DNA of 48,209 bases from NCBI GenBank assembly GCA_964524195.1, contig CAZGCC010000001.1:1-48209 (forward strand). Direction: 5' to 3'. Positions 23,014-46,812 of the stretch are shown in pieces. A program made the position numbers and the translations under genes. This stretch comes from an uncultured bacterium. GTDB taxonomy: Bacteria > Omnitrophota > Omnitrophia > Omnitrophales > Aquincolibacteriaceae. Each line of letters opens with the position of its first letter. Within the stretch, counting starts at the first letter, position 1. The notes under the pieces are model-generated. The model searched no databases, was not told where the DNA came from, and was given only the letters and a program-made list of their open reading frames with translations.

Positions 23014-24786
23014 TCAGGCCGGGAAAAAAACGGAGAATCGCGAGCCTTGACCGGGGGTGCTTTGGCAGGAAGCATGGCCGCCGTGAGCTTCCATGATGTG
23101 CTTGACGATCGCAAGTCCCAATCCCGTGCCTCCGAGTTCCTTCGACCGCGCTTTATCCACACGGAAGAACCGTTCAAAGATCCGCTCCCGGACCTCTTCC
23201 GGGATGCCGGCGCCCGCATCCTCGATCGTGACCGTGACTCCCGAGGGGCTTTGACTCGCCGAAAGAACGATCCTTCCTTCCGGTTTATTGAATTTGATCG
23301 CGTTGTCGATGAGATTCATCAAAACCTGATGGACTTTATCCCTGTCTCCGGAGAGGAGAATAGGTTTTCCGGAGAGGAGATTCTCGACCGTGATCTTTTT
23401 TTCACGGATCTGCGTCTTGAGCTTTTCCAGGATGGTCAATAATTCCGGAGAAAGATCGATCGCTTCCTTCCTTAAGGGCGCAACGCCTTGTTCGATCTCA
23501 CCGAGCGTCAGGATGTCTTCGACCAGGCGGCCCAGACGGTCTGTTTCCTCCGAAATGATCTTGAGGAACCTTTCGCTTGTCGGGGCGTCCTTGAGCGCGC
23601 CGCCCAGGAGGGTTTCGATAAAGCCCTTGATCGAGGTGAGGGGAGTACGAAGTTCGTGGGAGACATTCGCCACGAATTCCTTCCGCATATTCTCGAGCCG
23701 GCGGAGTTCCGTCATGTCATGAAACACCAGGATGCCGCCGATCGACCGGACATGGGCATCGAGAACGATGACATTTGCATGAAGTGTTTTTTTTATGTTT
23801 CCCGAAAGCTGGATCTCGACGGCGGTGGTTTTCTGCTCTTTGAAGGCGCGGTCCACGATCCCCTCAAGCTGGGGATGGCGCGTGATCTCGATCAGGCCTT
23901 TTCCCTGCGCCTCAGGAACCGCGAAGCCAAAGATATTTTCCGCGGCCGGATTTGCCGTCACCAGCTGTTTCCGCCGGTCTATCGCGATCACGCCTTCCTT
24001 CATATGACCTAAAATGACCGAGATCTTGCCTTTTTCGGTCTCGAGATCCTCGATCCTGGAGGCCAGGGAGGAAGCCATTTGGTTCATGGTCTCAGCGAGC
24101 ATCTTGAGCTCATCCTGCCCGTCCATCAGGATCTTTTCAGACCAGTCTTCACGGGCATACCGTTCGGCGATCGAAGTGATGCGGCGAATGCGCTTTGTGA
24201 GACGATCGCTGAAGAAAATCCCGGCACCAAGAACGATCAGGATGCCCAGGAAGGCCGTGAGCATCACGGTCCGTCGGACCGAGTCCAGGATCTCATTGAC
24301 ATGCGTCACCGGCATCGCCGCGCGAACAACTCCGAGAACTTTTCCGCTCTCTGTTATGGGGACCGCGAGATAAAGCATTTTGGCTTTAATGGTCATGCTG
24401 TAACGGAGGCTCATGCCCGTTTCTTTCCTGAGAGCTGCCGCAATTTCGGGGCGGGTCGCGTGATTATCCATTTTTGCGAGAGCTTCGTCAGTTTCACTGG
24501 AGTCGGCAAGGATCATGCCCTCGGGATCGACGACCGTAATGCGCAGGCCGGTTTCTTCCGCGATCTTCCGGATCTCGGACCGGAGCCGGGGGGTATCCCT
24601 CAAGAGAGGGTTTGCGATCTCACGGATCAGGACCGACTGCCGTACAAGAGAGCTCTGAAGCTGCTGAAGGTCCCTTTTCTGGAGGACCGTAGAAAGCGTC
24701 CAGTCCGTCACCAGCAGGACGAGGATAAAGATGACGCCGTAGAGCACGAGGAGCCGCTTGGCAAAACCGATCTTGGAGAAGCTCAT
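23014..24786 (-). CDS. phoR: Sensor histidine kinase, PhoR-like (TM, about 150 aa extracytoplasmic domain, TM, HAMP, PAS, HisKA, HATPase)
   Basis: FVANVSHELRTPLTSIKGF, the DRDKV.QVL.NL..NA pattern, GTGLGLAIVKHI and GQGSRFSVFFP. ATG 24786 lies 1 nt after the regulator's stop, with an alternative ATG at 24798. Confidence 0.75.
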   Translation of the reverse strand: MSFSKIGFAKRLLVLYGVIFILVLLVTDWTLSTVLQKRDLQQLQSSLVRQSVLIREIANPLLRDTPRLRSEIRKIAEETGLRITVVDPEGMILADSSETDEALAKMDNHATRPEIAAALRKETGMSLRYSMTIKAKMLYLAVPITESGKVLGVVRAAMPVTHVNEILDSVRRTVMLTAFLGILIVLGAGIFFSDRLTKRIRRITSIAERYAREDWSEKILMDGQDELKMLAETMNQMASSLASRIEDLETEKGKISVILGHMKEGVIAIDRRKQLVTANPAAENIFGFAVPEAQGKGLIEITRHPQLEGIVDRAFKEQKTTAVEIQLSGNIKKTLHANVIVLDAHVRSIGGILVFHDMTELRRLENMRKEFVANVSHELRTPLTSIKGFIETLLGGALKDAPTSERFLKIISEETDRLGRLVEDILTLGEIEQGVAPLRKEAIDLSPELLTILEKLKTQIREKKITVENLLSGKPILLSGDRDKVHQVLMNLIDNAIKFNKPEGRIVLSASQSPSGVTVTIEDAGAGIPEEVRERIFERFFRVDKARSKELGGTGLGLAIVKHIMEAHGGHASCQSTPGQGSRFSVFFPA

Positions 24787-24787
24787 T

Positions 24788-25477
24788 TCAGGCTCCATCG
24801 AAGCGGTAGCCGACACTTTTAATCGTGACGATCCGCTCCGCTTCTTTTCCGAGTTTTTTCCGCAACTGCCCGACATGCATGTCGACTGTCCGCGTTTCGA
24901 TATTCACGGAATTCTCATAACCCCAAACTTTTGATAAAAGGACTTCGCGGGTCAAGACCCGCTCTTTGGAGCCCATAAGGACGCGCAAAAGCTCGAATTC
25001 TTTCGCCGTGATCTCGACGGATCTTCCTTTAAGGCGCAACTCATGTTTGGTCACATCCAGCTCGATCGTTCCGGACCGCAAAACCTGCTCCGGGGATCTT
25101 TCCTGCGACCGGCGGAGCACGGCTTTGACGCGCGCCACAAGTTCCCGGGGGCTGAAGGGTTTGGTGATGTAATCGTCGGCGCCAAGCTCAAGGCCGACGA
25201 CCCTGTCGGACTCCGTGCCTTTCGCAGTAAGCATGATGATGGGGGTAAGCCGTGTTTTCTCGTTTTGGCGAAGGGTTTTGCAGATCTCAAGGCCATTCAT
25301 TTCCGGGAGCATGAGGTCCAGGACCACCAAAGCGGGTCTTTCCCGCAGGGCGGTTTCAAGCCCGGAGCTGCCTTTTGTGGCCGTAAGGACGCGAAAACCT
25401 TCCTGCTCGAGATTGTATTTTACAAGCTCGAGGATATTTTTTTCATCTTCTACAACAAGGACGGTTTCGCTCGCCAT
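24788..25477 (-). CDS. phoB: OmpR/PhoB-family response regulator
   Basis: VLVVEDEKNI, the DLMLP..NG pattern, P.IMLTAKG.E.DRV.GLELGADDYITKPFS.RELVARVKAVLRR and a winged-helix C-terminus ...TVKSVGYRF. Confidence 0.8.
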   Translation of the reverse strand: MASETVLVVEDEKNILELVKYNLEQEGFRVLTATKGSSGLETALRERPALVVLDLMLPEMNGLEICKTLRQNEKTRLTPIIMLTAKGTESDRVVGLELGADDYITKPFSPRELVARVKAVLRRSQERSPEQVLRSGTIELDVTKHELRLKGRSVEITAKEFELLRVLMGSKERVLTREVLLSKVWGYENSVNIETRTVDMHVGQLRKKLGKEAERIVTIKSVGYRFDGA

Positions 25478-25540
25478 GGCGGAGGCATTCTATCACACAG
25501 GATCTTCTCAAAAAAGTTTTAACCCTTTTCCGAAAGAGTT

Positions 25541-25558
25541 TTTACACGCTCTTTACAC
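25541..25558 (+). promoter_or_regulatory. Pho-box-like direct repeat pair (TTTACA-n5-TTTACA) in the phoB / giant-ORF divergent region
   Basis: TTTACAcgctcTTTACA with hexamer starts 11 bp apart. It lies 64-81 bp from the phoB start codon. Confidence 0.5.
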
Positions 25559-25679
25559 AACAAAGTAAAAACGAGTTGCTTCTGGGATGGTTTTTTCTCT
25601 TTTCTCTCTTCAAAAAAGCAAATTGTAACGCAGACCCTCCGCGATCGCCTATTCCGAGGCCAGCGTTGCCTCTAAAAAC

Positions 25680-25733
25680 TTTACATTTCTTTTACTTGTC
25701 CGTCACCGGGATTTCGCCCGGGGAAAGTAATAT
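25680..25733 (+). promoter_or_regulatory. Pho-box-like phased repeats plus a -10-like hexamer upstream of the giant ORF
   Basis: TTTACA (25680), TTTACT (25691) and a degenerate GTCACC (25702), all 11-bp phased. TAATAT at 25728 is 26 nt from the last hexamer start, the same offset as at 37486/37512 and 45190/45216. Confidence 0.5.
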
Positions 25734-25795: not shown

Positions 25796-28700
25796 ATGCG
25801 GATAAAGCCGGGACTTTGCCTTGCGAGGTCTTTTCAAAAGATTTTTTTAAGAGGCGTTGCTCTTGCGACGCTGAAGTGTTTCGTTGTCACCAGCCTTGCT
25901 CTGGGGATTTCTCCTGAAGCGATCGCCGCAAGCTGGAGTAGTCCGCTTGCTCTCGTAAGCTCCTTGCCCTTTTCCGGGATCCCAAAAGAAATGGGAAAAC
26001 TTGACGGTGTTTTTGCGCCCCCGGTTGCAAACCGGTCCGTTTTCTTTTTGCACATCAAAGACGCCCATGCCTCGATGGAGGCCCAGAGGAATATCAACCG
26101 GATCCTTACAAGGTTGCAGCAAAGAAAGCAACTAGACCTTGTTTTAATAGAAGGCGCCGCGGGACCTCTCACCCCAGGTCGTTTGGATGTGTTTGATGAC
26201 GCGAAAAGGAATGACGCGTACAAGAAAGATCTCTTAAGTGCGGGCTTGTTAAACGGCGCAGCCTATTTTGCCGCTGGCCAAAAAAATGGCCTGGCTCATG
26301 GGTTGGAAGATTCCGCAGCGTATTTTGAGAATCTCAAAATCTTTCGCCAGATCGCCGCCTCGCGCGTTCTTAACGAGAAATTTTTTAACGCGATCGAAGT
26401 CGCGCTTTTCAACAGATCAAAGAACATTCTTAAGATGGAAGTGTTCGCGTTTCTTAAGGAGTGGAAGAGGCATCATCAAAATACATTATCCTGGGATCGG
26501 TACCTTTCGTTCCTGATCCGGAGTGCCGCGAAGTTCCTGGCTCTCGACCTTCGGGATTACCGCACGCAGGTCTTGTGGCCTCACTTGGTTCGTTATCACC
26601 GACTGGAGATCTTTTCTGAGCAGATCCGTTCCGATGCCGTTCAAAAAGAATACCGGAAGCTTGTCCAACGACTCGAAAAGGTCCGTGAGCCGGCCCTGGA
26701 AGAGACTTTGGCGCTGTTGTCTGCTACGGTGGAAAGCCCGGCAGCCCTTATCCGGGAAACGCCCGATTTTCGAAAATATGTGGAAGTGCTTGTAGAGGCT
26801 TGCTCTCGCGAAAGGATCCTGCTGCAACAGTTTCCGAACCTCGTTCGTTATCTGGCTTTCCGGATCTTTCGCTCCGAGATCGAACCCGAAGAATTGCTTC
26901 TCGAGGTGGGGCGGCTGGAAGATGCCCTTTTCGAAAAACTGTTCAAGGAAGAAAAGTCCCGGAATTTTATAGCGGCCTACCGCGACTTTTTTCTTCTCAA
27001 GCGGGCTTTTGCGCTGGAGCTTGACCGGGCCGAATCCAAACGCTTTGAAATCATGGATGTTTCAAAGAGGGTTCGGCTGCTTTCAAAGATCGCCCCAGGG
27101 CATGATCTGCAAATAGAAAATTTGATCCGCGGGGCGGATCTCGTGAAGCGGTTCTACAAGGCGGCCCAAAAACGCGACGGCGCCTTTGCGGAGCAGCTAA
27201 GAAAAGCCCTGGAAGGAGCGCAGGTTTTCCCGGATAGGCCCTTTTTCATTGTGCTTGTCACCGGGGGATATCATGCCGAGAGTCTCGAAAACTGGCTTCG
27301 TACCGAAAAACTTCCGTTCGCCAGCATTCAGCCGTTGTTTAAAGACGAGCCTAATAAAGAACGGTATGAAAACCTTCTTAGGGGCGATTACAGCGACTTT
27401 GATGCTCTTGCGACTCCGCAGGGCTCTATTCTCCCGGATGCGATCGCCGAAAAACTCATGGGAAAAGAGGCCCTCACAGCGTTTCGTGGAGCCGAGGCGC
27501 GTTTAGCGGCCAGGCAAACCCTTGGATCCGGAACATCCGGGGACCGACCCTTTCGGAGACCAGATGAAAATGTTTCGATCTTGCAGGATTCCGTTCGTTC
27601 TGAATCTGGAAAATCGACCTCCGGGAGAGATTTAACGATCGACAAATTCAAGGAGATCGCTGAAAAATGGCTTCGCCTTTTCAAAATCGAACAGATGTCC
27701 CCGGAGGAAATTCTCTTAGGCGAAAAAGAGCTTTCTGTAAAACTTTCTTTTGCCTCTGGGGCTGAGGGCTCCAATGAGCTCGATGCGTCACACCAGGCGT
27801 TAGAAATGATCCAGGAAGAAGCGGAAGCTTTTTTCTCTGGCTACTACGGACAGATCCACAGCAGTTCTTTGGAGCCCAACAAGGGGACGAAGGACCTCTC
27901 CTGGGTTCAACTCACGCTTCACCGGCGATCCGAGACTAGGGCTCTAGTGAAAGGCCTTGCCCGTTTGCTCATAGCTTTTGCGTTGGCGGGGACGATAAGC
28001 GGCTGTTCAACTTTGAGCCATGAAGCATTAAAAGAACAAATTCGCCAGGCGGAGCAGTATACGCTCCCTCAGAGGACGGTGGCGGTTCCAGCCTCGGTCC
28101 GGGTGAATGAGAAAAATCTTCTCGAAGCAATCCTTCTTAATGACCCCCAAGTCCGCCAGGCCGGGCTGAGGATTGCGATCCGCGAGACCGAAAAAGGGCG
28201 TCTCAAAGGAAGTTTTTCTTTGGAAACGCATTTTTCCTTGGTGGATGGGAAGCCTGTTTTTAGCGGAGGCGTCAGGGGGAGGGCCCCTTATCTTGGAGAA
28301 GTGGGGCTTCTGGGTCTTGGCGCGGGAAGCGTGGCAAGTCTGGCGTTGGAGTTGACGGGAGCGCTCGGTAGTTTTATTTCCGGGGAGCCTCTCTTGGCGA
28401 ACGACCTTGCCCAAAAACTTATCGAAGCGGCCCAGTTGCATCACCAAGATGTTATTGGAGAGCGTTACCTGGAATATGCTCGAATTGCCTTGGAGGTCAA
28501 GACGCTCCAGGATCAGCAGGCTCTGGCTGAGGCGACGGTCGCAGCCCTGAAGCATTCCTTGCAAATATCGCTTCAAAAAAGAGAAAGTTCCGAGCAGGAT
28601 CGCGCTCGGATCGAAACGCTATTGGATGAATGGAAAATGCGCTCCAATGATCTCGGGGCGGCTTTCCGTGAGAAGAGCTCCCGGTTGCTCGATCTTTATA

Positions 28701-31700
28701 TTCCGGAAGCTGCGGGAGAGAGCCGCTGGGGAGTCGATTTCTCCTACGCTGCCATGCCTCGGAACTGGAAAGTGACCCCCGCCATGACTCAAGATCTTGT
28801 AAATCGTGCAACTCAAAGGACAGGATCTCAATTGCCTTTGAATCGCGAATTGGCCGCGGCCTACAAAGCGCGCGAAGCGTCCATTGTAACCATGCTCCTT
28901 TCAAAAGCCCGTGACCGTTTCAGCCTGAGCATCGGAGGCCTTTTCCATGCGGACGATCTGGGAACGCCGCCATCCATGGATGATGACGCGAAAGGGGATT
29001 TCGATACGAATGCGGACAAAATAGTGGACCGGAGGACCGAAGACAAAAATTCGGTAAGAACCGGCTTTCGAAAAACTTTTGGCGGCGAAAGCGCCGCGGA
29101 TGTTCAGATGGCTTCTCATGAAGTTGAGATGAACGACAGTCTTCTTCAGGAGGTGGATCGCCGTGTGAGGCTGGAGATCGCCGAGCTGCTTTCCCGGATC
29201 GAACAAAAAAACAAAGAGATCGGGATCCTGGAACAAGCGGTCAGCAGAGATCGCGCGCTTTTGGAGAAAGCCCGAAAGATCTCTTTTGGCGGACAAACTT
29301 TATATCTTGAGGATCGTTTGTTCCCTCAGATCGACGCGATCGGGAAAAACGGAATCGCGCTTTTAAAGGCGCAGCAGGAACTGACCGTGGCCATTAAGCG
29401 CTTGGAAGTTCTTTCGGGGACCTTAGGCGGATTTTCATGGGGTCAGGCGAAGCGCTCAGAGGTTCGAAGCGCGGCATTTTCTTCTGCCGCGCAGCTGTTA
29501 CTGTTTAAAGGTTTTGAGAGCGCCGCGCTTGCTGTCCGGTCAGCTTCCGATTCTCGCCGGAGCGAATTTAGTCTTGAGCGGGATCTGGATAAAGCCTGGT
29601 CCCATTTGATTAAATTGCGGGCGGGTTTCGAATCAGAATTCTCGGGAGAGAAAGGTGCTCTCCATAGCCAGCATGTTTTCGGAAAGGCGAATGACCGGTT
29701 GCGTTGGGATATCGACAATGGGGTCTGTTTGACGGAAGAAGAACATAGGCGTCTTGCCCACGGAGGCCAGACAGACAGAGCCAAATTCTGGGACTGGGCG
29801 ATCCGGCGCATGTCTCCCGAAACGCTCGAACATTTACGGGACGCAATGTACGAACCGGAAAAGCCGGTTGACAGGAGAATTCTGCTCGCTCAATTCCGAA
29901 AAGAAATAGAAGCTCAAAAAAGACGTCTGAAAGAATCCGGGACTGTTGAGCTGTTGACAAAGGGGGGGCGTTCGGAAATACGAGGAAGTTTTTCGGCCAA
30001 ACAAAACGGTCCAAAGGGATCTTTTCCCTGGCGCTCGATGTTTGTTAAGGCGGTGATCGCGCTTTTCCTGGTGATCGGTTCTTTGCTTCCGTCATCAGCA
30101 TTGGCTGGTCAGGCGGAACCAGCAATGCATGCGACCCGCATGGTTCGGTCGGGGGCGTCAGGTTTTGGCGCGGCAGCGTCGTCGCTGGTTGTCGCCGGAT
30201 CCCAGGAAGCAGGCAAAAATTCCTTTGATGTGTTTGTTGAGGAAACGCTCAGAAAGATCCCGAACGATTCGGACCGGCCGTATTTGAAAGGCTATGCGCA
30301 AGGGCTTCGGGATATTTTGGATATCACCACTCCCGAAGGCCTTGAGCAAGCAAAAAGCAGTTTCGCGGAAAGAGCGGATATCTTTATGCCGGTTCCCCGA
30401 TGGTCTGATCCCGAATTGCTTCAGCAAGTTTCAAGAAGGCTGGAAGGGTTGTTGAGAAAAATCCCAAAAGAAAAAAGACCCGAGGTAATCCGGGAAATAG
30501 AAAATGCGAACATCGGTGATGAAATTCCGGTAACCGTCATAAAAAGCATCCGTCGCCATCACCATAAATCGTCATTTCCTGTTTTTAAAAAAACCGAAGC
30601 GCAAGAATCCATTCGCGTTACCCGAGAGCTTAAGGAAACCGTAGAAACAAGACAAATGATCGAAGACAGGATCAGTTCCCAAAGAGCTCAAATCGTTTCT
30701 GGACGGGCGCCTGCACTATCGGGAAGCGGAGTGGACACCGTTCCCCAGTGGAAGCCCGGCGAAGTTGTCATGCCGCCCACGGAATGGCCTGATTCTCCGG
30801 AAGTCACTGAATTGGACGGAGCGCTGGCTGAGTTTGACGGTTTTGTCATGCAGCTTCTTTACAAGATCCCCGATGCCGCCCGAAGAACGCAGCTTGTTCA
30901 GTATGCGGAAGGCCTGAAAGCCATGATCGTAAATCCGTCTTCTCTGGAACACGCCAAAATGCAGTTTTCCAAAAAAGTCGCACTCGACGGTATTTCAGAA
31001 GGCCTGGGGGCGATCGCCGCGGGCGGTCCTCTGGCGGCAGGAGCGGCGCTCGTGGAGGCTCCGGTTGTGGCTGCCCCTGAACAAATAATAATACAGCCAA
31101 CCATCTCCGGAGCGGAAACGGTTCCTCCAGCAAATATTTCTCCCGTGATGGCCATTCTTTTGCCGGAAGGTCGTTCCGGAGCTCAAGCGGAAAGTTCCAG
31201 TACCGCCCTTGAGATCTTAAGAGATTTTGCGGATGCTGCGCCTCCAGCGGCGGCGAAGTCCCAAGAAACCTTGGCGGACGATGAGGCCATGCTTCCGGAG
31301 GCATCCGAAGAAATATCAGTTTCTCTGGAGCCCCCAAGCATTCCAGGGCCTGCGCCCGTGATAGATAGCGCAGTTTCCAGGACTCAAAAAATTTCCGAGC
31401 CTGAACGGACCTCGACTCAAACAGGGCCCGTTCTTCCCGCCGTTTCCCATGGGCCGCAAGGTGTGATTTATGAATCAGAACGACCAGCCAAGTCCACGCC
31501 GGTTTTTTGGGATATGCAAGCGCCTTTCCCCGGAAAAACTCAGCATCTGGTGCGGGAAGGCGATGTGGTGAGACCAGGAGATGTTCAGGCGGAAATACAA
31601 GATCCTGAGCAGCGGCATGAAATACAAGGCTTAAAGGCGGCGATCGCAGGTATTGACCGGCAAATCCAAGGAAAAGGCAGTGTTCTGGGGCTGGATGAAA

Positions 31701-34700
31701 ATATTCGCTTGCGGTTTGAACGGGAAGAATTGGCCCGCAGACTTCGGCAGCTTGAGTATCAAGAAAGCCTGAGCGTCATTAAAGCTGGCCGGCCCGGAAG
31801 GATCGTGGAAATTCGCCGCGGCGATATTAATGCGGGAGGGATGGTGGTTCGTGCCGTTGCTTTGGATGCCGGCGAAGTGAGCTATTGGGTGCCGCGGGAG
31901 TATAGCGATTTTGATTATCCCGAATTAGGCTTAACAAACGGAACACCGCTTCGGGTTGTCGGCTATCGCATCGATGATATTGACCTCAATAGCAGCCAGA
32001 TACTTTTGACAGTCGCGTTTGTCGGCAAGGACGAAATACCAGCGGATGCTCGATACAAACTGACGCTGGTTAAAAACCCCTCTCAAGTTACTGCCCAATC
32101 CGAAGAGGCATCAGGCCATTTCTTTCATGCCCGAGTTCCTTCGAGGGAAACGGCAGCCATTTCCGTTGAAAAAGCCGACAATATCCCAGGAGCTCGTGCT
32201 CGGCCATCGGTTCCTGAAGGCAGTTTTGTTTCGGCGGGCCAGGGGGTAGGTATGGCGGATGCTCTGGATTACCTGCAATCTCAAAGGGATCCGGCGAAGA
32301 AGTTGGTAGGCCATGCTGACGAATTGGCACGGGTAAACCAACAGGAAATCCAGCTGCTTCCTGACGATGAAGTGCGTCAAATCCAGAAGGATGCGAGACT
32401 TCAATTAGCGGATCTTGAAGGTACCAGCCCCCAGCTTATTTTAAAAGCGCCTATTTCAGGCATCGCAACAGGTCTTTCGGACCTTGAGGGCGAGGTCGTC
32501 ATTCCAGGTAAAGTTACACGGGCTAAAGTCACCAGTACCAGGGTTTTTCTGGGAAGCGAGAGAGCTTATGAAGGAAATCTTGAGCTTAATGACGACTATT
32601 TGATCTCAGTGCCTCAGGAAAGCGTTCGAGAGGGAGATCCGGTTCTTGTTTCAACGCCCGCAAGGCGTCCGCTCGTGGGGAAAGTAATTAAAATCGTCCC
32701 GCTTGCAAACCGCAGCGTATGGCTTAAGGGACAAGAAGCGCTGATAATCGAGGTCAATGACCCAGAAATGTATTTGGGAGACAGAATGCCGGTGCGGCTG
32801 GATTTTGATCCACAAGTCATCGCGGCGGCCAAGGATGCAGCAGCAAATCCTGACGGGAATGCCCCCGTTTTAGCCGACTTTAAGGATGATTTGCCGGCGC
32901 CTGCGGCTTATGCGGTCCTTCAGAGCCCCGAAGACGAATTAAGTCTCGGGAAAATATGGCGTTTGACCCGCCACGAGGGGAACAGCCTTCAGAAGGTCGG
33001 CATGTGGAGATATTTCTTGGGGACAGCGGTCGGTTGGGCATTCCTTGGTAAGCTTGTCTGGGCGGGTTCGGGGAAGATCCTGATCTCGCTGGCGGCGGGC
33101 CTGGCGGCCTTGACGCTTTGGAACACCTTTTCGAATCTGTGGAGGCGGTTTTTCCCCAAAGAGATCGAAGATGAATCCAAGGATCTCGGCTCTGATATCC
33201 GGCGTCTTGCGCGAAGCCTGGAGATGGACAGTGCCAGCCTTTTCGGGAAAGAGGAAGAGGCCGAAGAGATCCTCCACGATATCATAGCGGCTTTGCATAG
33301 CTGGAATCAGCTCCTGCAGGAAGAGAGCCTTACTTCTGCCGACCTTTCAACGATGATGACGAAAGCCCAAGAGCTGGCCGGTAACAAGCGGCTCATGTAT
33401 TCCAAGAAACATTCCCAGAACATGGGCTATTTTAAGGAGGATGCCGCCGATGATTTCGTCCGGATCCATGAGATCATCGCCCGTTTAGCCATTTTGAGCG
33501 CCGCCAAAGCCTCGTTCGAGCTTAAGGTCAGGCCTTCCCGCGGTGCCGGGCTTGTCGAGGAAGAGAAGCTCCTGGATTTTCAGGAAAAAATGGAATATTT
33601 TGCCGAAGGACTCAATAATGCGTCCCAGGTCGGTTATAAGCTGTCGGCGATCGCGAATCCCACAGATCATTATCCTCCCAAAGTGATGCGGAACGGAAGG
33701 GCTCTGACCCTTTCCCATTTGTTCCAATGGATCCATAACCGATGGATTTTTTATACCTTCCCGGCGCTTCGGTTCCTGAATTTCTACGCCGTGGCGGTAT
33801 TCTTTCACAAAGGCGGGCGGCATGTACCGTTCCTCTGGGGAGCGGCGGATTACTATCATCACTATTACAATGCCATGAAAAAAGCGGGTGTCGATCTCGC
33901 CTCCACACCTTCGGATTTTGAGAAAGGATTCAAGGATGCTTTTTATAAAGAGGTGGATATTGAACACTGGCTACCCAGCAAAAAGCTGCATTATTATGGG
34001 CGCTATTACGCCTTGGTAGGATGGGTCATTTTTGCGATCCTGCCATGGTTTTTATCCCCGCTTCTCCTGTATCTTTCCGGGGTCGGGCTCATCGTGGGAA
34101 CGAGCATTCTCATGATCTGGAAAACGGTGCCGCTGTTTTACACATTTTTCCGTTACATGCTGCCTGTTGTAATGGGAAGCGAAAGCAAACACTACCGATC
34201 TAACCTGAAAGATATTGTCCGTCTTCGGCGCGAACGCTTGCGAAAACAGGCGGGTCTGTTGAGCGGGAAAAAGGAATCGCCCTTGCCGCCCCGGGGTTTA
34301 CCGTCTTCGGCTTCTGCATCTCAGGTTACAGAACCCGGCACCATTGCTTTGAAGGCCATGCAGCAAGCTTTGCTTCAGGCCGCAGAAAATGCCGAAGTGG
34401 AGATCATTGCGGTCCTGCCTCCCCGGAATGGAAACAATGACCGGGATATAGATCTTTTTGAGAAAAGGGTCCGTCACGATGAGGCATTAGCGCGCTTGGG
34501 GATTCGCACGGTCGAAAGCGATGGGAAGATTGCCGGGGAGGCGGGGCTCTTCTTCGCGGCCCGGTCCATCTCGGATGAGAATAAACCTTATAAGATCTAC
34601 TGGTATCCCAAGGGTTTTCCGAGCGAAGGGGTTCGTCTTGCTTCTGCGTTAGCGGTATTCAAATTTAATTTAGCAGAAGCTTTGCGTATGATCGATGCTT

Positions 34701-36976
34701 ACCGGAAACTCGGAGATTCCTTTGCGACGGTTGTTTTTCCGGGAGGGGAAATGGATACCAGCGTTACGGAAGCCACTGAAAATGGCAGCAATTTTGTGGT
34801 TCGAAGTCGTTACGAAAGTTTAAAAGAGATCCGCTCCAGGAACCTTCCCGTTCTTTTGGGGCATAACGGGACCACTCGCTTGAGAGTGGATCAGGTGATC
34901 TATAGCCCCGACGAACTGAAGGGGGCGATTAGCAAGGCAGATATTTCCATGGGAGCCCGGCGGTTTGATCTTTCAAATGATGAATTGAAGCAGATCCCGG
35001 TGCGGTCTGGTCCTCTCGCGATCGTGGCCAAAGACAGGGAAACTCAGGAAAAGATCGAGCAAGTCCTGGAGGTCTTTCAGCGGGGTACCGAAGAGCTTTC
35101 GGCGCGGTATGCCCCTTTTATGACCGATCTTTTGCAGGATGTTTTCAGTCCGGTGGCTGAATTTTTCCGTCAGTTCAATCCTGCGTCTCCCGAAACCCCA
35201 AGTATGAACCACCTGACCCAGCGGACGCTAGGGATGCCGGACGGCCGGATCGTCAATCCCTGGAACAAGTTGCACGGTAAGATCGCAACGCGGCTCCTGA
35301 CACTTTCGGCATCCGGCCGCAAAGCGCCTCTTCATGTCGAGGCGTTTATTCCGCCGTTCGTCGATTCCTTCCATCTTGAAAGTTCGAATTATGAAGGTAT
35401 TCTCAGCCAGCTTGTAAATCTTCACAAAGACTTTCCGGAACTGGTCGACCCGGTGATTTTAGAACGCCTTAAAGAAAGCCGTAAACGCGCCGCTTCGAAA
35501 ATTCCAGAAATCCTGATCTTTGAGGACGATTCAGGAAAAAAGGTTTACGCCACCAAAGAGGAAGGATACCGTCGGAAATTACGGGCTCTCGAGGTGGCGG
35601 GACTTGTTACCAAGGACGGCAAATTGGTTTTGCAGCGGCGGAGCAATCAGTCGGCAACAAATCCCGGGCGCTTGGATGTTTCATTTGCGGGACATCGTCA
35701 GCAGCAGGATGTTTCTTCGGAAGCGGCCGCCAAGCGGGAATTTTTAGAAGAGCTTTTGGCTGGCAGTCCGCTTTCCGTTCCTCTGAAGTTCGAAAAACTG
35801 AAAGATCATCGCTACGAGATCCCTCATGAGACACCGGGGAAAGGGCTGTTTCGCCGCAAGCATTCCGAGATCTTTCAGGTCCGTCTGGACGGTGAGTTCC
35901 AGTGGGGCGATTTCAAGCCGGCAGATAATGCCGTCGAAGTGGTTCCCATCGATCCTGGCGAGATCCCGCAGCTTTTAGCCGAGAAATCCGGCCAGTTCAC
36001 CCCACGCGCTTTTTCGCTACTTAAGGAAGTTTATCAGCAGCCGGATCTTGGTTTGGCGGGAATCCCTGCTAATCCTTCTTCTGTTCCTCCGCGCTCCGAA
36101 GTGAGAAACCCCAAAGAGGAAATCGGCCCGACAGAGGAGCTCTCTGATCTTGAAGAAATGAAAATCTTCCTACCCGAGACATCCGAAGCGATCCGTGTTC
36201 TGACGGCTATCCTTGTTGCTGAAAGGATCCTTGCCATTCGCGATGTTGGCTTTCTTTCCAGGCTGGAAGCTTCGCTCGAAGATACCGGCGCGATCTCTGA
36301 ACGCGTTGCGCCTGCTCTTGCGGCGCTATCCGGCGCCCATGATGTTTCATCAGAAACATTAAAAACGCGATTGGAGTTGCTGCTTCGCCAGAAACAAAGC
36401 CAAACCGCTACGGATGAGCGCATTGTTTTTCTGGATGCCGGGACAGTCCCTGCGGAATATTTCAAGAAGCTTTTGAGGTCTCAAGTTCCCGTAGTGGTCT
36501 TGTTCGATCGTCACCACCAAGCGCTTTATGAGCAGGCCGCCAAAGAACAATTGCGTGCCCAGGCGGGGAGCCATGTCATTTTAGTTTATACGCCGGATGG
36601 GGTGAGCTCTTTTGTCAAACGGGCGCTCCAGTCAGGCGATGCGCTTCTTACCGCTTCTCCGCGTCTGAACGCTGTTTTGACCCGCTTTCGAAGTCACGGG
36701 AAGGCGGATGACATTGCCCTTATCACGAGAGGGCGCGCTGAAAGCCAGAAGGTCGAATCCGATTATGTTGGCCACCGCTATTATTACGATGACGAAACAC
36801 TTCGGCTTGACCCGGAATTGATCTTTTACTCCTTGCAGCTTCTCCTGCGCAGCCCGGAGCTTTTCCGTTACGGGAAGGGACGGAATGCTCAGGATGCGGT
36901 CTCCCTGATAGGGCTGGTGCTCCAGCAGCTTGCAGCTTCCTTGAGAGGGGAGCAGGCAGCCAAAGTCGCAGCGTAA
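25796..36976 (+). CDS. Giant multi-module envelope protein (about 3,726 aa), function unknown
   Basis: One uninterrupted frame. ATG 25796 is preceded by AGGGTGAGGG, and GTG 25787 is an alternative start. It contains recognisable OMF-like, MFP-like, polytopic-membrane and Nudix-like segments (see the sub-features and findings). Confidence 0.85.
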   Translation: MRIKPGLCLARSFQKIFLRGVALATLKCFVVTSLALGISPEAIAASWSSPLALVSSLPFSGIPKEMGKLDGVFAPPVANRSVFFLHIKDAHASMEAQRNINRILTRLQQRKQLDLVLIEGAAGPLTPGRLDVFDDAKRNDAYKKDLLSAGLLNGAAYFAAGQKNGLAHGLEDSAAYFENLKIFRQIAASRVLNEKFFNAIEVALFNRSKNILKMEVFAFLKEWKRHHQNTLSWDRYLSFLIRSAAKFLALDLRDYRTQVLWPHLVRYHRLEIFSEQIRSDAVQKEYRKLVQRLEKVREPALEETLALLSATVESPAALIRETPDFRKYVEVLVEACSRERILLQQFPNLVRYLAFRIFRSEIEPEELLLEVGRLEDALFEKLFKEEKSRNFIAAYRDFFLLKRAFALELDRAESKRFEIMDVSKRVRLLSKIAPGHDLQIENLIRGADLVKRFYKAAQKRDGAFAEQLRKALEGAQVFPDRPFFIVLVTGGYHAESLENWLRTEKLPFASIQPLFKDEPNKERYENLLRGDYSDFDALATPQGSILPDAIAEKLMGKEALTAFRGAEARLAARQTLGSGTSGDRPFRRPDENVSILQDSVRSESGKSTSGRDLTIDKFKEIAEKWLRLFKIEQMSPEEILLGEKELSVKLSFASGAEGSNELDASHQALEMIQEEAEAFFSGYYGQIHSSSLEPNKGTKDLSWVQLTLHRRSETRALVKGLARLLIAFALAGTISGCSTLSHEALKEQIRQAEQYTLPQRTVAVPASVRVNEKNLLEAILLNDPQVRQAGLRIAIRETEKGRLKGSFSLETHFSLVDGKPVFSGGVRGRAPYLGEVGLLGLGAGSVASLALELTGALGSFISGEPLLANDLAQKLIEAAQLHHQDVIGERYLEYARIALEVKTLQDQQALAEATVAALKHSLQISLQKRESSEQDRARIETLLDEWKMRSNDLGAAFREKSSRLLDLYIPEAAGESRWGVDFSYAAMPRNWKVTPAMTQDLVNRATQRTGSQLPLNRELAAAYKAREASIVTMLLSKARDRFSLSIGGLFHADDLGTPPSMDDDAKGDFDTNADKIVDRRTEDKNSVRTGFRKTFGGESAADVQMASHEVEMNDSLLQEVDRRVRLEIAELLSRIEQKNKEIGILEQAVSRDRALLEKARKISFGGQTLYLEDRLFPQIDAIGKNGIALLKAQQELTVAIKRLEVLSGTLGGFSWGQAKRSEVRSAAFSSAAQLLLFKGFESAALAVRSASDSRRSEFSLERDLDKAWSHLIKLRAGFESEFSGEKGALHSQHVFGKANDRLRWDIDNGVCLTEEEHRRLAHGGQTDRAKFWDWAIRRMSPETLEHLRDAMYEPEKPVDRRILLAQFRKEIEAQKRRLKESGTVELLTKGGRSEIRGSFSAKQNGPKGSFPWRSMFVKAVIALFLVIGSLLPSSALAGQAEPAMHATRMVRSGASGFGAAASSLVVAGSQEAGKNSFDVFVEETLRKIPNDSDRPYLKGYAQGLRDILDITTPEGLEQAKSSFAERADIFMPVPRWSDPELLQQVSRRLEGLLRKIPKEKRPEVIREIENANIGDEIPVTVIKSIRRHHHKSSFPVFKKTEAQESIRVTRELKETVETRQMIEDRISSQRAQIVSGRAPALSGSGVDTVPQWKPGEVVMPPTEWPDSPEVTELDGALAEFDGFVMQLLYKIPDAARRTQLVQYAEGLKAMIVNPSSLEHAKMQFSKKVALDGISEGLGAIAAGGPLAAGAALVEAPVVAAPEQIIIQPTISGAETVPPANISPVMAILLPEGRSGAQAESSSTALEILRDFADAAPPAAAKSQETLADDEAMLPEASEEISVSLEPPSIPGPAPVIDSAVSRTQKISEPERTSTQTGPVLPAVSHGPQGVIYESERPAKSTPVFWDMQAPFPGKTQHLVREGDVVRPGDVQAEIQDPEQRHEIQGLKAAIAGIDRQIQGKGSVLGLDENIRLRFEREELARRLRQLEYQESLSVIKAGRPGRIVEIRRGDINAGGMVVRAVALDAGEVSYWVPREYSDFDYPELGLTNGTPLRVVGYRIDDIDLNSSQILLTVAFVGKDEIPADARYKLTLVKNPSQVTAQSEEASGHFFHARVPSRETAAISVEKADNIPGARARPSVPEGSFVSAGQGVGMADALDYLQSQRDPAKKLVGHADELARVNQQEIQLLPDDEVRQIQKDARLQLADLEGTSPQLILKAPISGIATGLSDLEGEVVIPGKVTRAKVTSTRVFLGSERAYEGNLELNDDYLISVPQESVREGDPVLVSTPARRPLVGKVIKIVPLANRSVWLKGQEALIIEVNDPEMYLGDRMPVRLDFDPQVIAAAKDAAANPDGNAPVLADFKDDLPAPAAYAVLQSPEDELSLGKIWRLTRHEGNSLQKVGMWRYFLGTAVGWAFLGKLVWAGSGKILISLAAGLAALTLWNTFSNLWRRFFPKEIEDESKDLGSDIRRLARSLEMDSASLFGKEEEAEEILHDIIAALHSWNQLLQEESLTSADLSTMMTKAQELAGNKRLMYSKKHSQNMGYFKEDAADDFVRIHEIIARLAILSAAKASFELKVRPSRGAGLVEEEKLLDFQEKMEYFAEGLNNASQVGYKLSAIANPTDHYPPKVMRNGRALTLSHLFQWIHNRWIFYTFPALRFLNFYAVAVFFHKGGRHVPFLWGAADYYHHYYNAMKKAGVDLASTPSDFEKGFKDAFYKEVDIEHWLPSKKLHYYGRYYALVGWVIFAILPWFLSPLLLYLSGVGLIVGTSILMIWKTVPLFYTFFRYMLPVVMGSESKHYRSNLKDIVRLRRERLRKQAGLLSGKKESPLPPRGLPSSASASQVTEPGTIALKAMQQALLQAAENAEVEIIAVLPPRNGNNDRDIDLFEKRVRHDEALARLGIRTVESDGKIAGEAGLFFAARSISDENKPYKIYWYPKGFPSEGVRLASALAVFKFNLAEALRMIDAYRKLGDSFATVVFPGGEMDTSVTEATENGSNFVVRSRYESLKEIRSRNLPVLLGHNGTTRLRVDQVIYSPDELKGAISKADISMGARRFDLSNDELKQIPVRSGPLAIVAKDRETQEKIEQVLEVFQRGTEELSARYAPFMTDLLQDVFSPVAEFFRQFNPASPETPSMNHLTQRTLGMPDGRIVNPWNKLHGKIATRLLTLSASGRKAPLHVEAFIPPFVDSFHLESSNYEGILSQLVNLHKDFPELVDPVILERLKESRKRAASKIPEILIFEDDSGKKVYATKEEGYRRKLRALEVAGLVTKDGKLVLQRRSNQSATNPGRLDVSFAGHRQQQDVSSEAAAKREFLEELLAGSPLSVPLKFEKLKDHRYEIPHETPGKGLFRRKHSEIFQVRLDGEFQWGDFKPADNAVEVVPIDPGEIPQLLAEKSGQFTPRAFSLLKEVYQQPDLGLAGIPANPSSVPPRSEVRNPKEEIGPTEELSDLEEMKIFLPETSEAIRVLTAILVAERILAIRDVGFLSRLEASLEDTGAISERVAPALAALSGAHDVSSETLKTRLELLLRQKQSQTATDERIVFLDAGTVPAEYFKKLLRSQVPVVVLFDRHHQALYEQAAKEQLRAQAGSHVILVYTPDGVSSFVKRALQSGDALLTASPRLNAVLTRFRSHGKADDIALITRGRAESQKVESDYVGHRYYYDDETLRLDPELIFYSLQLLLRSPELFRYGKGRNAQDAVSLIGLVLQQLAASLRGEQAAKVAA
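27941..29430 (+). other. Internal module: lipoprotein-type signal (lipobox LAGTISG-C, Cys codon 28004-28006) plus a TolC/NodT-like outer-membrane-factor region
   Basis: ALVKGLARLLIAFALAGTISGCS. About 475 aa follow, with two OMF-like half repeats (LLEAILLNDPQVRQAGLRIA...GSFSLETHFSL and NRELAAAYKAREAS...RFSLSIGGLF) and long helical stretches ending in ...AIKRLEVLSG. Confidence 0.55.
31500..32815 (+). other. Internal module: two tandem HlyD/membrane-fusion-protein-like units
   Basis: Unit 1: HLVREGDVVRPGDVQAEIQD, then coiled coil, then VIKAGRPGRIVEI..GD...GG.VV. Unit 2: VPEGSFVSAGQGVG, then coiled coil, then ILKAPISGIATG, VREGDPVLVS and GDRMPVRLDF. Confidence 0.55.
33002..34180 (+). other. Internal module: polytopic membrane block (about 6 hydrophobic helices) with Tyr/His-rich loops
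   Basis: WRYFLGTAVGWAFLGKLVWAGSGKILISLAAGLAALTLW, IFYTFPALRFLNFYAVAVFF and YYALVGWVIFAILPWFLSPLLLYLSGVGLIVGTSILMIWKTVPLFYTFFRYMLPVVMG. The loops carry ADYYHHYYN and LHYYGRYY. Confidence 0.6.
35590..35985 (+). other. Internal module: degenerate Nudix-fold domain
   Basis: VAGLVTKDGKLVLQRRSNQSATNPGRLDVSFAGHRQQQDVSSEAAAKREFLEELL follows the pattern KDGK.LLQ.RS..K...PG..D.S.GGH...GE....AA.RE..EE.G. The REFLEE core is kept, while the Gx5E spacing and the final Gly are altered. Confidence 0.5.
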
Positions 36977-36988
36977 AGGAAAGATGCT

Positions 36989-37165
36989 ATGAAGAACACG
37001 AAGCCGGACTTCACTGAAACCCCTTATGTTTTTCGCGAAGGGAGAGAAAACAAAGATCAGCTGCCTGAATTGTTCGATGATTTTTCCGGCGGCCATCTCG
37101 CTCGATATTTTAACTCAAAGGCCCTGTTCTTGAAGCCCGTGAACCAAAAAAAAGAGAGGGATTAA
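36989..37165 (+). CDS. 58-aa hypothetical protein, coupled to the giant ORF (below the ORF-track cutoff)
   Basis: AAGGAAAG lies 5 nt before ATG 36989, which is 12 nt after the giant ORF's stop. Translation: MKNTKPDFTETPYVFREGRENKDQLPELFDDFSGGHLARYFNSKALFLKPVNQKKERD*. The TAA abuts the next ATG. Confidence 0.4.
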   Translation: MKNTKPDFTETPYVFREGRENKDQLPELFDDFSGGHLARYFNSKALFLKPVNQKKERD

Positions 37166-37396
37166 ATGACTGCTCAGGAGACAAACGAAATATTGATCAC
37201 CAGATTAAGACATCAGCGCGACCTTTTGCGTGAGCTTGTCGACGAGCTGGAAGCGAAGAGTATTCTCGCGGTCGAGCACTATGCCTATTGTGAAAGCTGC
37301 ACAGACGAAGTTAGCAAAGAGCTGAAAGAAATCAGGCGCTTCGTCCTAGACAAAATGATCCAGGGAGCCCCTTGGTTTCAAACGGTATCGATTTAG
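37166..37396 (+). CDS. 76-aa hypothetical helical protein
   Basis: The ATG directly follows the previous TAA (TAAATG), with GAGAGGG upstream. Coiled-coil-like sequence with a CESC pair. No family recognised. Confidence 0.5.
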   Translation: MTAQETNEILITRLRHQRDLLRELVDELEAKSILAVEHYAYCESCTDEVSKELKEIRRFVLDKMIQGAPWFQTVSI

Positions 37397-37474: not shown

Positions 37475-37517
37475 TTTACAAATGCTTTACATGAGACCCC
37501 TCCGCAGGCGTTATAAT
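37475..37517 (+). promoter_or_regulatory. Pho-box-like repeat pair plus a consensus -10 upstream of the ROK-ppx-ppk1 operon
   Basis: TTTACAaatgcTTTACA with hexamer starts at 37475 and 37486. TATAAT at 37512 is 26 nt from the second hexamer start. No -35 match. Confidence 0.6.
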
Positions 37518-38534: not shown

Positions 38535-38536
38535 AA

Positions 38537-40111: not shown

Positions 40112-40117
40112 GCGACC

Positions 40118-45167: not shown

Positions 45168-45221
45168 ATTACAATCTCTTTACATTCCCATCACAAAGAC
45201 CTGACAGCTGCTTTCTATACT
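45168..45221 (+). promoter_or_regulatory. Triple phased Pho-box-like hexamers plus a -10-like hexamer upstream of the porin gene
   Basis: ATTACA (45168), TTTACA (45179) and ATCACA (45190), all 11-bp phased. TATACT at 45216 is 26 nt from the last hexamer start. Confidence 0.55.
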
Positions 45222-46703: not shown

Positions 46704-46812
46704 GGAGCAAAAGGATATGGAGCCAGTTCTCATGATCTTCAGAGCGGGTGGTTCCTCCCTTGGTTCCCAATGCCCAGTGGGGGCTGGCTCCGCAGTTTTT
46801 GTAAAGTAGCGG

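What the first reader, a model, noticed from the sequence alone, without database searches (positions are those of the whole stretch)
25541..25733. Phased TTTACA direct repeats (Pho-box-like) in the phoBR / giant-ORF divergent region
There are two sets of hexamers with starts exactly 11 bp apart:
- TTTACA-cgctc-TTTACA at 25541-25557.
- TTTACA-tttct-TTTACT-tgtcc-GTCACC at 25680-25707.

Hexamers of the type TT(A/T/C)ACA repeated on one helical face are the known binding architecture of PhoP/PhoB-type regulators. A PhoR/PhoB-like pair is encoded immediately to the left. The downstream set is followed by TAATAT at 25728 with no -35 match, as expected for activator-dependent promoters. This would place the giant ORF, and probably phoBR itself, in a phosphate-starvation regulon.
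Basis: partly seen in the sequence, partly recalled or inferred. Interest (0 to 1): 0.65.

Follow-up and report, generated by a model that had tools for sequence, protein, structure and literature searches.

The report
Pho boxes controlling a giant gene
The phased TTTACA repeats are real, conserved phosphate-regulator binding sites (Pho boxes) of an uncultured Omnitrophota bacterium; they most likely switch on a 3,700-residue envelope protein, the polyphosphate genes, the phosphate porin/pstS genes and the regulator's own gene when phosphate runs low.

Summary

- **Enrichment.** TTTACA-N5-TTTACA with at most 1 mismatch occurs 4 times in the window against 0.04-0.10 expected. All four are intergenic and on the + strand.
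- **Independent check.** The same window-derived pattern gives 8 hits against about 0.14 expected in five other Omnitrophota loci. Every hit lies upstream of giant-ORF, porin or pstS genes.
- **Giant-ORF promoter.** Eight orthologous promoters share H1-N5-H2-N5-H3-N5-H4-N9-(-10 TAnnnT) with no -35. The hexamers and the -10 are islands of conservation, 1.0-1.8 bits against 0.3-0.8 elsewhere.
- **Closest known type.** This is the Bacillus-type PhoP box, four TT(A/T/C)ACA-like repeats in 11-bp phase, placed like the E. coli Pho box.
- **The regulator.** Orthologues of the adjacent regulator/kinase pair sit beside porin-pstSCAB-phoU in other genomes. It is the Pho two-component system.
- **The 25541 pair.** It has no -10 of its own. 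It lies at a quantised distance (37-38 or 48-49 bp) from a conserved extended -10 of phoB, which suggests autoregulation.

This is a new member of a known kind. The novelty is the invariable coupling of a giant fused exporter-like protein to PhoB.

The parts
25541..25557 (+). Set A: the phoB-proximal Pho-box pair, TTTACA-cgctc-TTTACA. It has no + strand -10 behind it. It lies 48 bp from the phoB -10, with its centre at about -69 of the phoB promoter, in inverted orientation. It is the likely autoregulatory site.
   Evidence: top-scoring position, 24.8 bits. Present at this place in all 9 giant-ORF loci. Gap to the phoB -10 is 48/49/48/48, 38/38/38/37, or 77.
25680..25718 (+). Set B: four phased hexamers of the giant-ORF promoter. 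H1 TTTACA 25680-85, H2 TTTACT 25691-96, H3 GTCACC 25702-07, H4 TTCGCC 25713-18 (weak).
   Evidence: The architecture is conserved in 8 orthologous promoters: information content H1 1.78, H2 1.62, H3 0.99, H4 1.20 bits, against 0.34 in the flank.
25728..25733 (+). -10 hexamer TAATAT of the giant-ORF promoter. It lies 9 bp after H4 and there is no -35. The inferred transcription start is near 25740.
   Evidence: Orthologues carry TAAGCT, TAGCAT or TAAACT at the identical offset. No sigma-70 consensus promoter on the + strand.
25487..25495 (-). Extended -10 (TGATAGAAT) of the phoB promoter, 9 nt before the phoB ATG. This implies a leaderless or near-leaderless mRNA.
   Evidence: TGnTAnnAT sits 9-20 nt before the phoB ATG in 10 loci.
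24788..25477 (-). phoB/phoP-type response regulator, 229 aa.
   Evidence: RegX3 1e-52; B. subtilis PhoP receiver 2e-43. Orthologues lie next to the pst operon.
23014..24786 (-). phoR-type histidine kinase with Cache-like, HAMP, PAS, HisKA and HATPase domains. The true start is probably just after the phoB stop.
   Evidence: PnpS 404.6 against a cut-off of 400. Gene calls in the loci give 590-620 aa.
25796..36976 (+). Giant ORF, 3,726 aa from ATG 25796. In order it has: a signal peptide; an N-terminal domain of unknown fold; an internal lipobox followed by a TolC/OMF-like module; membrane-fusion-protein-like modules; a polytopic membrane region; and a C-terminal NUDIX domain.
   Evidence: Orthologues of 3,361-4,492 aa are always divergent from a phoB-type regulator gene.
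37475..37517 (+). Pho-box pair TTTACA-aatgc-TTTACA (37475-91), then 20 bp, then TATAAT (37512-17). This is the promoter of the ROK kinase-ppx-ppk1 operon. The real ROK start is ATG 37549, behind a GGAGGG ribosome-binding site.
45168..45221 (+). Four phased hexamers, ATTACA / TTTACA / ATCACA / CTGACA, then 9 bp, then TATACT. This is the promoter of the Porin_5 gene (45294-46703) and probably of pstS (46893-47843), which has no box of its own.
   Evidence: The same arrangement precedes the L087 and L089 porin genes.

Best explanation
The repeats are Pho boxes: operator sites for the phosphorylated PhoB/PhoP-type regulator encoded at 24788-25477.

**Organism.** Candidatus Omnitrophota.

**Inferred mechanism.** When phosphate is scarce, the PhoR-type kinase phosphorylates the regulator. 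Regulator dimers then bind head-to-tail on hexamers spaced 11 bp apart, on one face of the helix.

**At the giant-ORF promoter.**
- Four phased hexamers, H1-H4 (25680-25718), end 9 bp before the -10 TAATAT.
- They occupy the place of the missing -35.
- The bound regulator therefore recruits RNA polymerase and starts transcription near 25740.

**At two other promoters in the window.** The same device drives ROK-ppx-ppk1 (37475) and porin-pstS (45168).

**The upstream pair (25541).** It does not serve a + strand promoter. It sits at a fixed, helical-phase-quantised distance upstream of phoB's own extended -10 promoter, and most likely mediates autoregulation of phoBR.

**What is shown and what is inferred.** Shown: the motif, its enrichment, its conservation, its fixed geometry relative to the -10 elements, and its association with Pho genes. 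Inferred: binding by this regulator, the phosphate dependence, and the direction of the effect (activation).
For: **Enrichment.**
- 4 hits against 0.04-0.10 expected in the window.
- 8 hits against about 0.14 expected in five independent Omnitrophota loci. All are intergenic and all point towards giant-ORF, porin or pstS genes.

**An independently trained matrix recovers the window sites.** They are its top five positions.

**Phylogenetic footprint over 8 giant-ORF promoters.** The proteins are only 27-64% identical, yet the hexamers and the -10 carry 1.0-1.8 bits, against 0.3-0.8 bits in flanks and spacers.

**Same architecture upstream of canonical Pho genes.**
- L087 and L089 pstS: TTTACAaggatTTTACA-N21-(-10).
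- L087 and L089 porin: four hexamers-N9-TATACT or TATGCT.

**The regulator/kinase pair is the Pho system.** Orthologues are divergent from porin-pstSCAB-phoU while keeping the same downstream synteny. Family hits are PhoB and PnpS.

**These are not ordinary -35 elements.**
- There is no canonical -35.
- No TTTAC[AC] hexamer in the window has a TAnnnT 15-19 bp downstream.

**Set A is placed relative to phoB.** The gap from Set A to the phoB -10 is quantised at 48/49/48/48 and 38/38/38/37 bp. The distance from Set A to Set B varies from 75 to 223 bp.

**The motif matches the published Firmicute PHO box.** That box is four TT(A/T/C)ACA-like repeats at 11-bp periodicity. The L. paracasei pstS site reads tttacacaatctttacattcaatgacatgaacatttaca (PMC11870197).
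Against: - There is no experimental evidence of binding or of phosphate-dependent expression.
- The regulator scores below NCBIfam's PhoB equivalog cut-off, 258.8 against 296.2.
- Its recognition helix (RTVDMHVGQLRKK) differs from both the Firmicute and the proteobacterial PhoP/PhoB helices compared.
- In this window H3 (GTCACC) and H4 (TTCGCC) are weak.
- One Set A spacing is an outlier, 77 bp in L084.
- The most distant lineage sampled (L093, regulator 75% identical) shows no box near phoB or pstS at up to 2 mismatches.
- The PhoU_div-PHO4 operons carry only single hexamers.
- Set A is inverted relative to phoB, which is unusual for activation by this regulator family.
Confidence: 0.8

Rival explanations
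1. The conserved phased hexamers are operators of a different DNA-binding protein, for example another OmpR-family regulator, rather than of the adjacent PhoB-type regulator. They might respond to a signal other than phosphate.
For: The regulator is below the PhoB equivalog cut-off and has an atypical recognition helix. In L094-L097 the regulator next to the giant ORF has no adjacent kinase, so the signalling input there is unknown.
Against: The motif follows the regulator gene in every locus and sits in front of pstS, porin and ppk genes. Tandem 11-bp direct repeats are the binding mode of this regulator family (PMC4415409). No other regulator gene is consistently linked.
Confidence: 0.1
2. 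This rival concerns Set A (25541-25557) only. It is not a phoB autoregulatory site. It is instead a distal auxiliary Pho box of the giant-ORF promoter, or an evolutionary remnant of the porin promoter that occupies this position in other genomes.
For: Set A always points towards the giant ORF, not towards phoB. In L089/L090 the equivalent pair forms H1-H2 of the porin promoter. Promoters with several Pho boxes are known in E. coli (PMC4415409).
Against: The Set A to Set B distance is not conserved (75-223 bp). The Set A to phoB -10 gap is quantised at 37-38 or 48-49 bp in 8 of 9 lineages, although the sequence in between is unrelated. A remnant would not stay an exact consensus: it is TTTACA-N5-TTTACA with 0 mismatches in 7 loci.
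Confidence: 0.2
3. The hexamers are ordinary promoter elements (TTGACA-like -35 boxes, duplicated) or a chance cluster in AT-richer intergenic DNA.
For: TTTACA alone is over-represented, 27 against 10.8 expected. In L088 and L089 a single TTTACG lies about 17 bp before a -10-like hexamer upstream of PhoU_div.
Against: The spacing to the -10 is 20-21 bp or 31 bp, never 16-18. The pair statistic is 40-100 times above expectation. The four-hexamer register is conserved across lineages.
Confidence: 0.03

Closest known systems
Bacillus subtilis PhoP-PhoR PHO boxes (and those of other Firmicutes, e.g. Lacticaseibacillus paracasei pstS)
   Same: - Hexamer consensus TT(A/T/C)ACA, or (T/A)T(T/G)ACA.
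- Direct repeats at 11-bp periodicity, typically four of them, on the coding strand upstream of activated genes such as pstS (PMC11870197).
- The kinase here has a Cache-like extracytoplasmic domain plus a PAS domain and passes the PnpS model, which is the Firmicute type.
- The B. subtilis PhoP receiver domain is among the best PDB matches.
   Different: - The organism is a Gram-negative-type Omnitrophota bacterium with an outer-membrane porin in the regulon.
- The regulator's recognition helix (RTVDMHVGQ) and a loop before it that is 2 residues longer differ from the clostridial PhoP-like sequences compared.
- The third repeat is a degenerate nTCAnn.
- A giant envelope protein is a regulon member.
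Escherichia coli PhoB Pho box
   Same: - Two or more 11-bp direct-repeat units bound head-to-tail (PMC4415409).
- The box ends about 10 bp upstream of the -10 and replaces the -35. Here H4 ends 9 bp before the -10 and there is no -35. The E. coli position is stated from my own knowledge of Makino et al.
- phoBR is autoregulated, and pstS is a core target.
   Different: The conserved E. coli unit is CTGTCAT, not TTTACA. Only the promoter-proximal H4 of the porin promoters (CTGACA, TTGACA) resembles it. Here the phoB gene has an extended -10 with a box far upstream in inverted orientation, instead of a box at -35.
Mycobacterial SenX3-RegX3 (closest solved structure of the regulator)
   Same: A phosphate-responsive OmpR-family regulator. 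It is the best PDB sequence match (2oqr, E 1e-52).
   Different: Only protein similarity was tested. The DNA motifs were not compared here.

Membership tests
Pho box (PhoB/PhoP-type operator), generic | Direct repeats with 11-bp periodicity, on one face of the helix | tested here: met
   Hexamer starts are exactly 11 bp apart at 25541/25552, at 25680/25691/25702/25713, at 37475/37486, and at 45168/79/90/201. The register is conserved in 11 promoters.
Pho box (PhoB/PhoP-type operator), generic | Overlaps or replaces the -35 and ends about 10 bp upstream of a -10, at a promoter lacking a -35 | tested here: met
   H4 ends 9 bp before TAATAT, TATACT or the orthologous -10 in 11 of 11 aligned promoters. 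No sigma-70 consensus promoter on the + strand.
Pho box (PhoB/PhoP-type operator), generic | Found upstream of core Pho-regulon genes (pstS etc.) in the same lineage | tested here: met
   Found at L087 and L089 pstS, at L087, L089 and window porin genes, and at window ROK-ppx-ppk1. A whole-genome scan was not possible, because only about 20-kb loci were available.
Pho box (PhoB/PhoP-type operator), generic | Bound by the phosphorylated Pho regulator; transcription responds to phosphate limitation | not testable with these tools
   Needs EMSA, DAP-seq, footprinting and expression data.
Bacillus-type PHO box | Hexamer consensus TT(A/T/C)ACA; four repeats typical | tested here: met
   H1 and H2 consensus is TTTAC(A/C) and (T/A)TTACA. 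H4 is (T/A/G)T(T/G)(A/T)C(A/G). H3 is degenerate, nTCAnn. Consensus as quoted in PMC11870197.
E. coli-type Pho box | Conserved 7-mer CTGTCAT in each 11-bp unit | tested here: not met
   None of the hexamers or their flanks reads CTGTCAT. The nearest is CTGACA, as H4 of the porin promoter.
PhoB/PhoP response regulator (orthologue) | OmpR-family architecture (receiver domain plus winged-helix Trans_reg_C domain) | tested here: met
   Pfam 110 bits and 83 bits.
PhoB/PhoP response regulator (orthologue) | Passes a curated PhoB equivalog model | tested here: not met
   TIGR02154 scores 258.8 against a cut-off of 296.2. It is still the best-scoring family. The model is proteobacteria-centred.
PhoB/PhoP response regulator (orthologue) | Genetic linkage to a PhoR-type kinase and to pstSCAB-phoU | tested here: met
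   The kinase passes PnpS, 404.6 against 400. Orthologous pairs are divergent from porin-pstSCAB-phoU in L087, L089, L090 and the P0040 contig.

The most novel reading that the evidence does not exclude
The giant ORF is a single-polypeptide, envelope-spanning exporter-like machine. It fuses an N-terminal domain of unknown fold, an internal lipobox, an OMF/TolC-like module, MFP-like modules, a membrane domain and a NUDIX domain, and it may be processed at internal signal-peptide and lipobox sites.

On this reading, these ultra-small and possibly host-dependent Omnitrophota deploy it specifically under phosphate starvation, as a device for getting phosphorus from outside or from a host. In about half of the lineages sampled it has taken the chromosomal place next to phoB that the pst operon holds in the others.
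Probability: 0.15. Interest if true: 0.75.

Novelty: new member of a known kind. Interest (0 to 1): 0.45.

Why it matters
Pho boxes themselves are textbook biology. Three things make this case useful.

1. **First operator and promoter model for Omnitrophota, as far as the held literature shows.** A full-text search found no paper combining Omnitrophota with "Pho regulon". The model shows that a Firmicute-type PhoP box is used in a diderm PVC-related lineage.

2. **A testable regulatory handle on a very large, fast-evolving Omnitrophota protein.** The functions of such proteins are described as poorly understood in the literature (PMC10066038; 10.1101/2023.11.21.568195). The prediction is that expression rises when phosphate is limiting. 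This can be checked in existing metatranscriptomes.

3. **A phosphate island with three co-regulated promoters plus an autoregulated, apparently leaderless phoB.** The island reads phoR-phoB, the giant ORF, ROK-ppx-ppk1, ppk2, then porin-pstS.

Tried and rejected
**Searches that failed or found nothing**
- The genome-contig scan with the regulator was swamped by OmpR-family paralogues. The best hit was 58% identical and no orthologous locus came back. I switched to exact-protein look-ups of close homologues.
- Two of those look-ups listed genes but returned no DNA for the best contig.
- The search for homologous proteins with the whole giant ORF timed out. With the C-terminal 777 aa it found nothing. 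With the N-terminal 640 aa it found only 5 proteins.
- The first metagenome scan with the single N-terminal domain found no relative, and alignment A1 was too divergent to search with. The narrower alignment A2 worked.

**Giant-ORF function**
- An AlphaFold model of the N-terminal domain was usable (pLDDT 71.8), but it has no significant PDB fold match. The best E-value is 0.075, and erythromycin esterase comes in at E 0.5.
- A PDB profile search of the TolC-like module found nothing.

**Other negatives**
- Rfam has no family anywhere in the window.
- The idea that TTTACA is simply the local -35 was rejected on spacing.
- I could not test whether giant-ORF copies away from phoB keep the boxes, because every copy found is next to a phoB-type gene.

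Full report
**1. What is in the sequence**

- TTTACA 25541-46 and 25552-57.
- TTTACA 25680-85, TTTACT 25691-96, GTCACC 25702-07.
- TAATAT 25728-33.

They lie in the 318-bp divergent region between two genes. One is an OmpR-family response regulator, 24788-25477 on the minus strand. The other is an 11.2-kb ORF whose likely start is ATG 25796, behind the ribosome-binding stretch AGGGTGAGGG.

The regulator gene is followed by a histidine kinase with Cache-like, HAMP, PAS, HisKA and HATPase domains.

The rest of the window is rich in phosphate genes.
- A ROK sugar kinase, exopolyphosphatase and polyphosphate kinase 1, at 37549-42181.
- PPK2, at 44168-45025.
- A Porin_5 outer-membrane protein, at 45294-46703.
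- PstS, at 46893-47843.

**2. Is it more than chance?**

TTTACA-N5-TTTACA with at most one mismatch occurs four times in the window: at 25541, 25680, 37475 and 45168.
- The expectation is 0.10 or 0.04.
- All four are on the + strand.
- All four are intergenic, in a window that is 92% coding.

A weight matrix built only from sites in other genomes puts these positions, plus the overlapping 45179, at ranks 1-5 of about 96,000 positions.

**3. Organism and orthologous loci**

Close homologues of the regulator (75-96% identity) are abundant in metagenomes. Where they are named, they come from Candidatus Omnitrophota.

Exact-protein look-ups and one metagenome scan gave ten independent loci. Two arrangements recur.
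- **Arrangement (i): phoBR divergent from a giant ORF of 3,361-4,492 aa.** Seen in the window, L084/85, L088, L091, L092, the P0018 contig and L094-L097.
- **Arrangement (ii): phoBR divergent from porin-pstS-pstC-pstA-pstB-pstB-phoU.** Seen in L087 and L089/90. In the P0040 contig, small genes lie between phoBR and the operon.

Both arrangements share the same downstream synteny as the window: kinase, aldehyde dehydrogenase, DUF2203, GSP-synthetase-like gene, citrate synthase. These are therefore orthologous phoBR loci, and the pair is the Pho two-component system.

Family models agree.
- PhoB is the best hit for the regulator, although it scores below the curated cut-off.
- The kinase passes the PnpS model.
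- The nearest solved structures are RegX3 and the B. subtilis PhoP receiver domain.

**4. Conserved promoter anatomy**

I anchored 8 giant-ORF promoters and 3 porin promoters on the first hexamer. All share this layout:

H1-N5-H2-N5-H3-N5-H4-N9-(-10: TAnnnT)

| Promoter | H1 | H2 | H3 | H4 | -10 |
|---|---|---|---|---|---|
| Window giant ORF | TTTACA | TTTACT | GTCACC | TTCGCC | TAATAT |
| L084 | TTTACA | TTTACC | GTGATG | TTTTCA | TAAGCT |
| L088 | TTTACG | TTTACA | ATCAAG | TTTTCA | TAGCAT |
| L091 | TTTACC | ATTACA | CTCATG | ATTACA | TAAGCT |
| Window porin | ATTACA | TTTACA | ATCACA | CTGACA | TATACT |
| L087 porin | TTTACC | CTTACA | ATCACG | TTGACA | TATACT |

Information content over the giant-ORF promoters shows a clear footprint.

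| Segment | Bits |
|---|---|
| H1 | 1.78 |
| H2 | 1.62 |
| H3 | 0.99 |
| H4 | 1.20 |
| -10 | 1.47 |
| 5' flank | 0.34 |
| Spacers | 0.31-0.77 |

The proteins these promoters drive are only 27-64% identical, so this conservation is not simple relatedness.

A second promoter class carries the strong pair one unit closer to the -10, with 20-21 bp between the pair and the -10. It comprises the window ROK-ppx-ppk1 promoter and the pstS promoters of L087 and L089.

None of these promoters has a -35. No TTTAC[AC] hexamer in the window lies 15-19 bp from a TAnnnT. The hexamers are therefore not ordinary -35 boxes.

The window-derived pattern, applied to five independent loci, gives 8 hits against about 0.14 expected. 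All 8 lie in these promoters.

**5. The upstream pair (Set A, 25541)**

The pair is present, mostly as an exact consensus, in every giant-ORF locus. It is never followed by a + strand -10.

On the other strand, phoB has a conserved extended -10, TGnTAnnAT. In the window this is TGATAGAAT at 25487-95. It lies only 9-20 nt before the ATG in ten loci, which implies a leaderless or very short-leader mRNA.

The distances point to phoB as the target.
- The gap from Set A to the phoB -10 is 48, 49, 48, 48 bp in four loci and 38, 38, 38, 37 bp in four others. It is 77 bp in L084.
- The two classes are one helical turn apart, and the sequence in between is unrelated.
- The distance from Set A to Set B ranges from 75 to 223 bp.

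Set A is therefore positioned relative to the phoB promoter, centred near -69 or -59. It most likely mediates autoregulation.

In L089/90 the same pair doubles as H1-H2 of the divergent porin promoter. That arrangement is probably ancestral.

**6. Mechanism**

The following is inferred from the known behaviour of this regulator family.
- Low phosphate leads PhoR to phosphorylate the regulator.
- Regulator dimers bind head-to-tail on the 11-bp-phased units (PMC4415409).
- The promoter-proximal protomers occupy the -35 position and recruit RNA polymerase.
- H1 and H2 are the high-affinity nucleation site, and H3 and H4 fill cooperatively.

The targets in this window are the giant ORF, ROK-ppx-ppk1, porin-pstS and phoBR itself. 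pstS has no box of its own, and hairpins lie between it and the porin gene.

**7. Comparison with known systems**

[quoted passage not shown] The L. paracasei pstS site reads tttacacaatctttacattcaatgacatgaacatttaca (PMC11870197).

The placement equals that of the E. coli Pho box, but the E. coli unit CTGTCAT is not present.

The regulator's recognition helix (RTVDMHVGQLRKK) differs from both groups, and the loop before it is 2 residues longer. The match in DNA motif is therefore not explained by an identical helix.

**8. The giant ORF**

Its function remains unknown. The anatomy is as follows.
- A signal peptide.
- A domain of about 550 aa. The AlphaFold model has pLDDT 71.8 and no significant PDB match.
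- An internal lipobox, LSGC, invariant in four orthologues. It sits at the head of a module with weak but recurrent OEP/TolC Pfam hits.
- Two membrane-fusion-protein-like segments. The profile matches MexA at 7e-4 and MacA at 8e-3.
- A polytopic membrane region.
- A C-terminal NUDIX domain.

It looks like a tripartite exporter fused into one polypeptide.

The papers on giant Omnitrophota genes do not mention Pho or two-component control. No paper in the held library combines Omnitrophota with "Pho regulon".

**9. Verdict**

This is a new member of a known kind: a Pho regulon operator in a phylum where none had been described. It has one unexpected and consistently linked target. My confidence that these are functional Pho-type operators is about 0.8.

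The main caveats are:
- there are no experiments;
- the motif is absent in the most distant lineage sampled, L093;
- H3 and H4 are weak in this particular genome.

Noticed in passing
window 46718-46792 and 46813-46853; L093 19311-19385: Two strong hairpins lie between the porin stop codon and pstS. The first is a long imperfect stem, GGAGCCAG...CTGGCTCC. The second is a perfect 16-bp stem. The fold z-score is -5.65. The first element recurs at the same porin-pstS junction in L093, whose regulator is only 75% identical. There is no Rfam match. It may be an intra-operon processing, attenuation or stabiliser element that sets the porin:PstS ratio.
   Followed up: partly
window 25478-25495 (- strand); same place in L084, L087-L089, L091, L092, L094-L096: phoB has a conserved extended -10 (TGnTAnnAT) only 9-20 nt before its ATG, and no Shine-Dalgarno sequence in the window. 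The phoBR mRNA therefore appears to be leaderless or nearly so. Other genes in the window have strong GGAGG sites.
   Followed up: partly
window 27990-28004 (ORF residues about 733-737), aligned in L084, L091 and L092: An internal lipoprotein-type signal, ...LAGTISGC..., sits inside the giant ORF at the start of its TolC-like module. The G-C of the lipobox is invariant in four orthologues. A further signal-peptide-like segment lies near residue 1400. This suggests multiple membrane passes, or processing of a polyprotein by signal peptidases.
   Followed up: partly
L094-L097 (metagenome loci): In these lineages the PhoB-like regulator (71-74% identical) beside the giant ORF has no adjacent histidine kinase; frr and pyrH lie downstream instead. 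Similarity of the giant protein's N-terminal domain to the window (57-64%) is higher than in loci whose regulator is much closer (L084: regulator 89%, giant domain 31%). The regulator and giant-ORF histories therefore look incongruent.
   Followed up: no
L091, L092, L094, L095 and L096, about 15-40 nt downstream of the giant-ORF -10: The giant-ORF mRNA has a conserved 5'-UTR stretch, ...ctGAAacacTTcaAAagTTtttagaaag.... It is not obviously present in the window. It could be a leader element or could simply reflect relatedness.
   Followed up: no
window 36989-37165 and 37166-37396: Two small ORFs of 58 and 76 aa, with ribosome-binding sites, lie between the giant-ORF stop codon and the ROK promoter. 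The second has a CxxC motif. They have no annotation and may be co-transcribed with the giant ORF.
   Followed up: no
window-wide, e.g. 25641 and 25919: The palindrome GCGATCGC (HIP1-like) occurs 10 times against 2.2 expected. Two copies flank the giant-ORF promoter region.
   Followed up: partly
L089 9909-9914 and L090: The annotated start of the Porin_5 gene (525 aa, against 469-494 aa elsewhere) lies inside its own Pho-box promoter. The four hexamers and the TATGCT -10 fall within the called N-terminus, so the gene call is too long at the 5' end. In the window, ORF-finder starts at 37482 (ROK) and 25787 (giant ORF) are likewise upstream of the probable true starts.
   Followed up: yes
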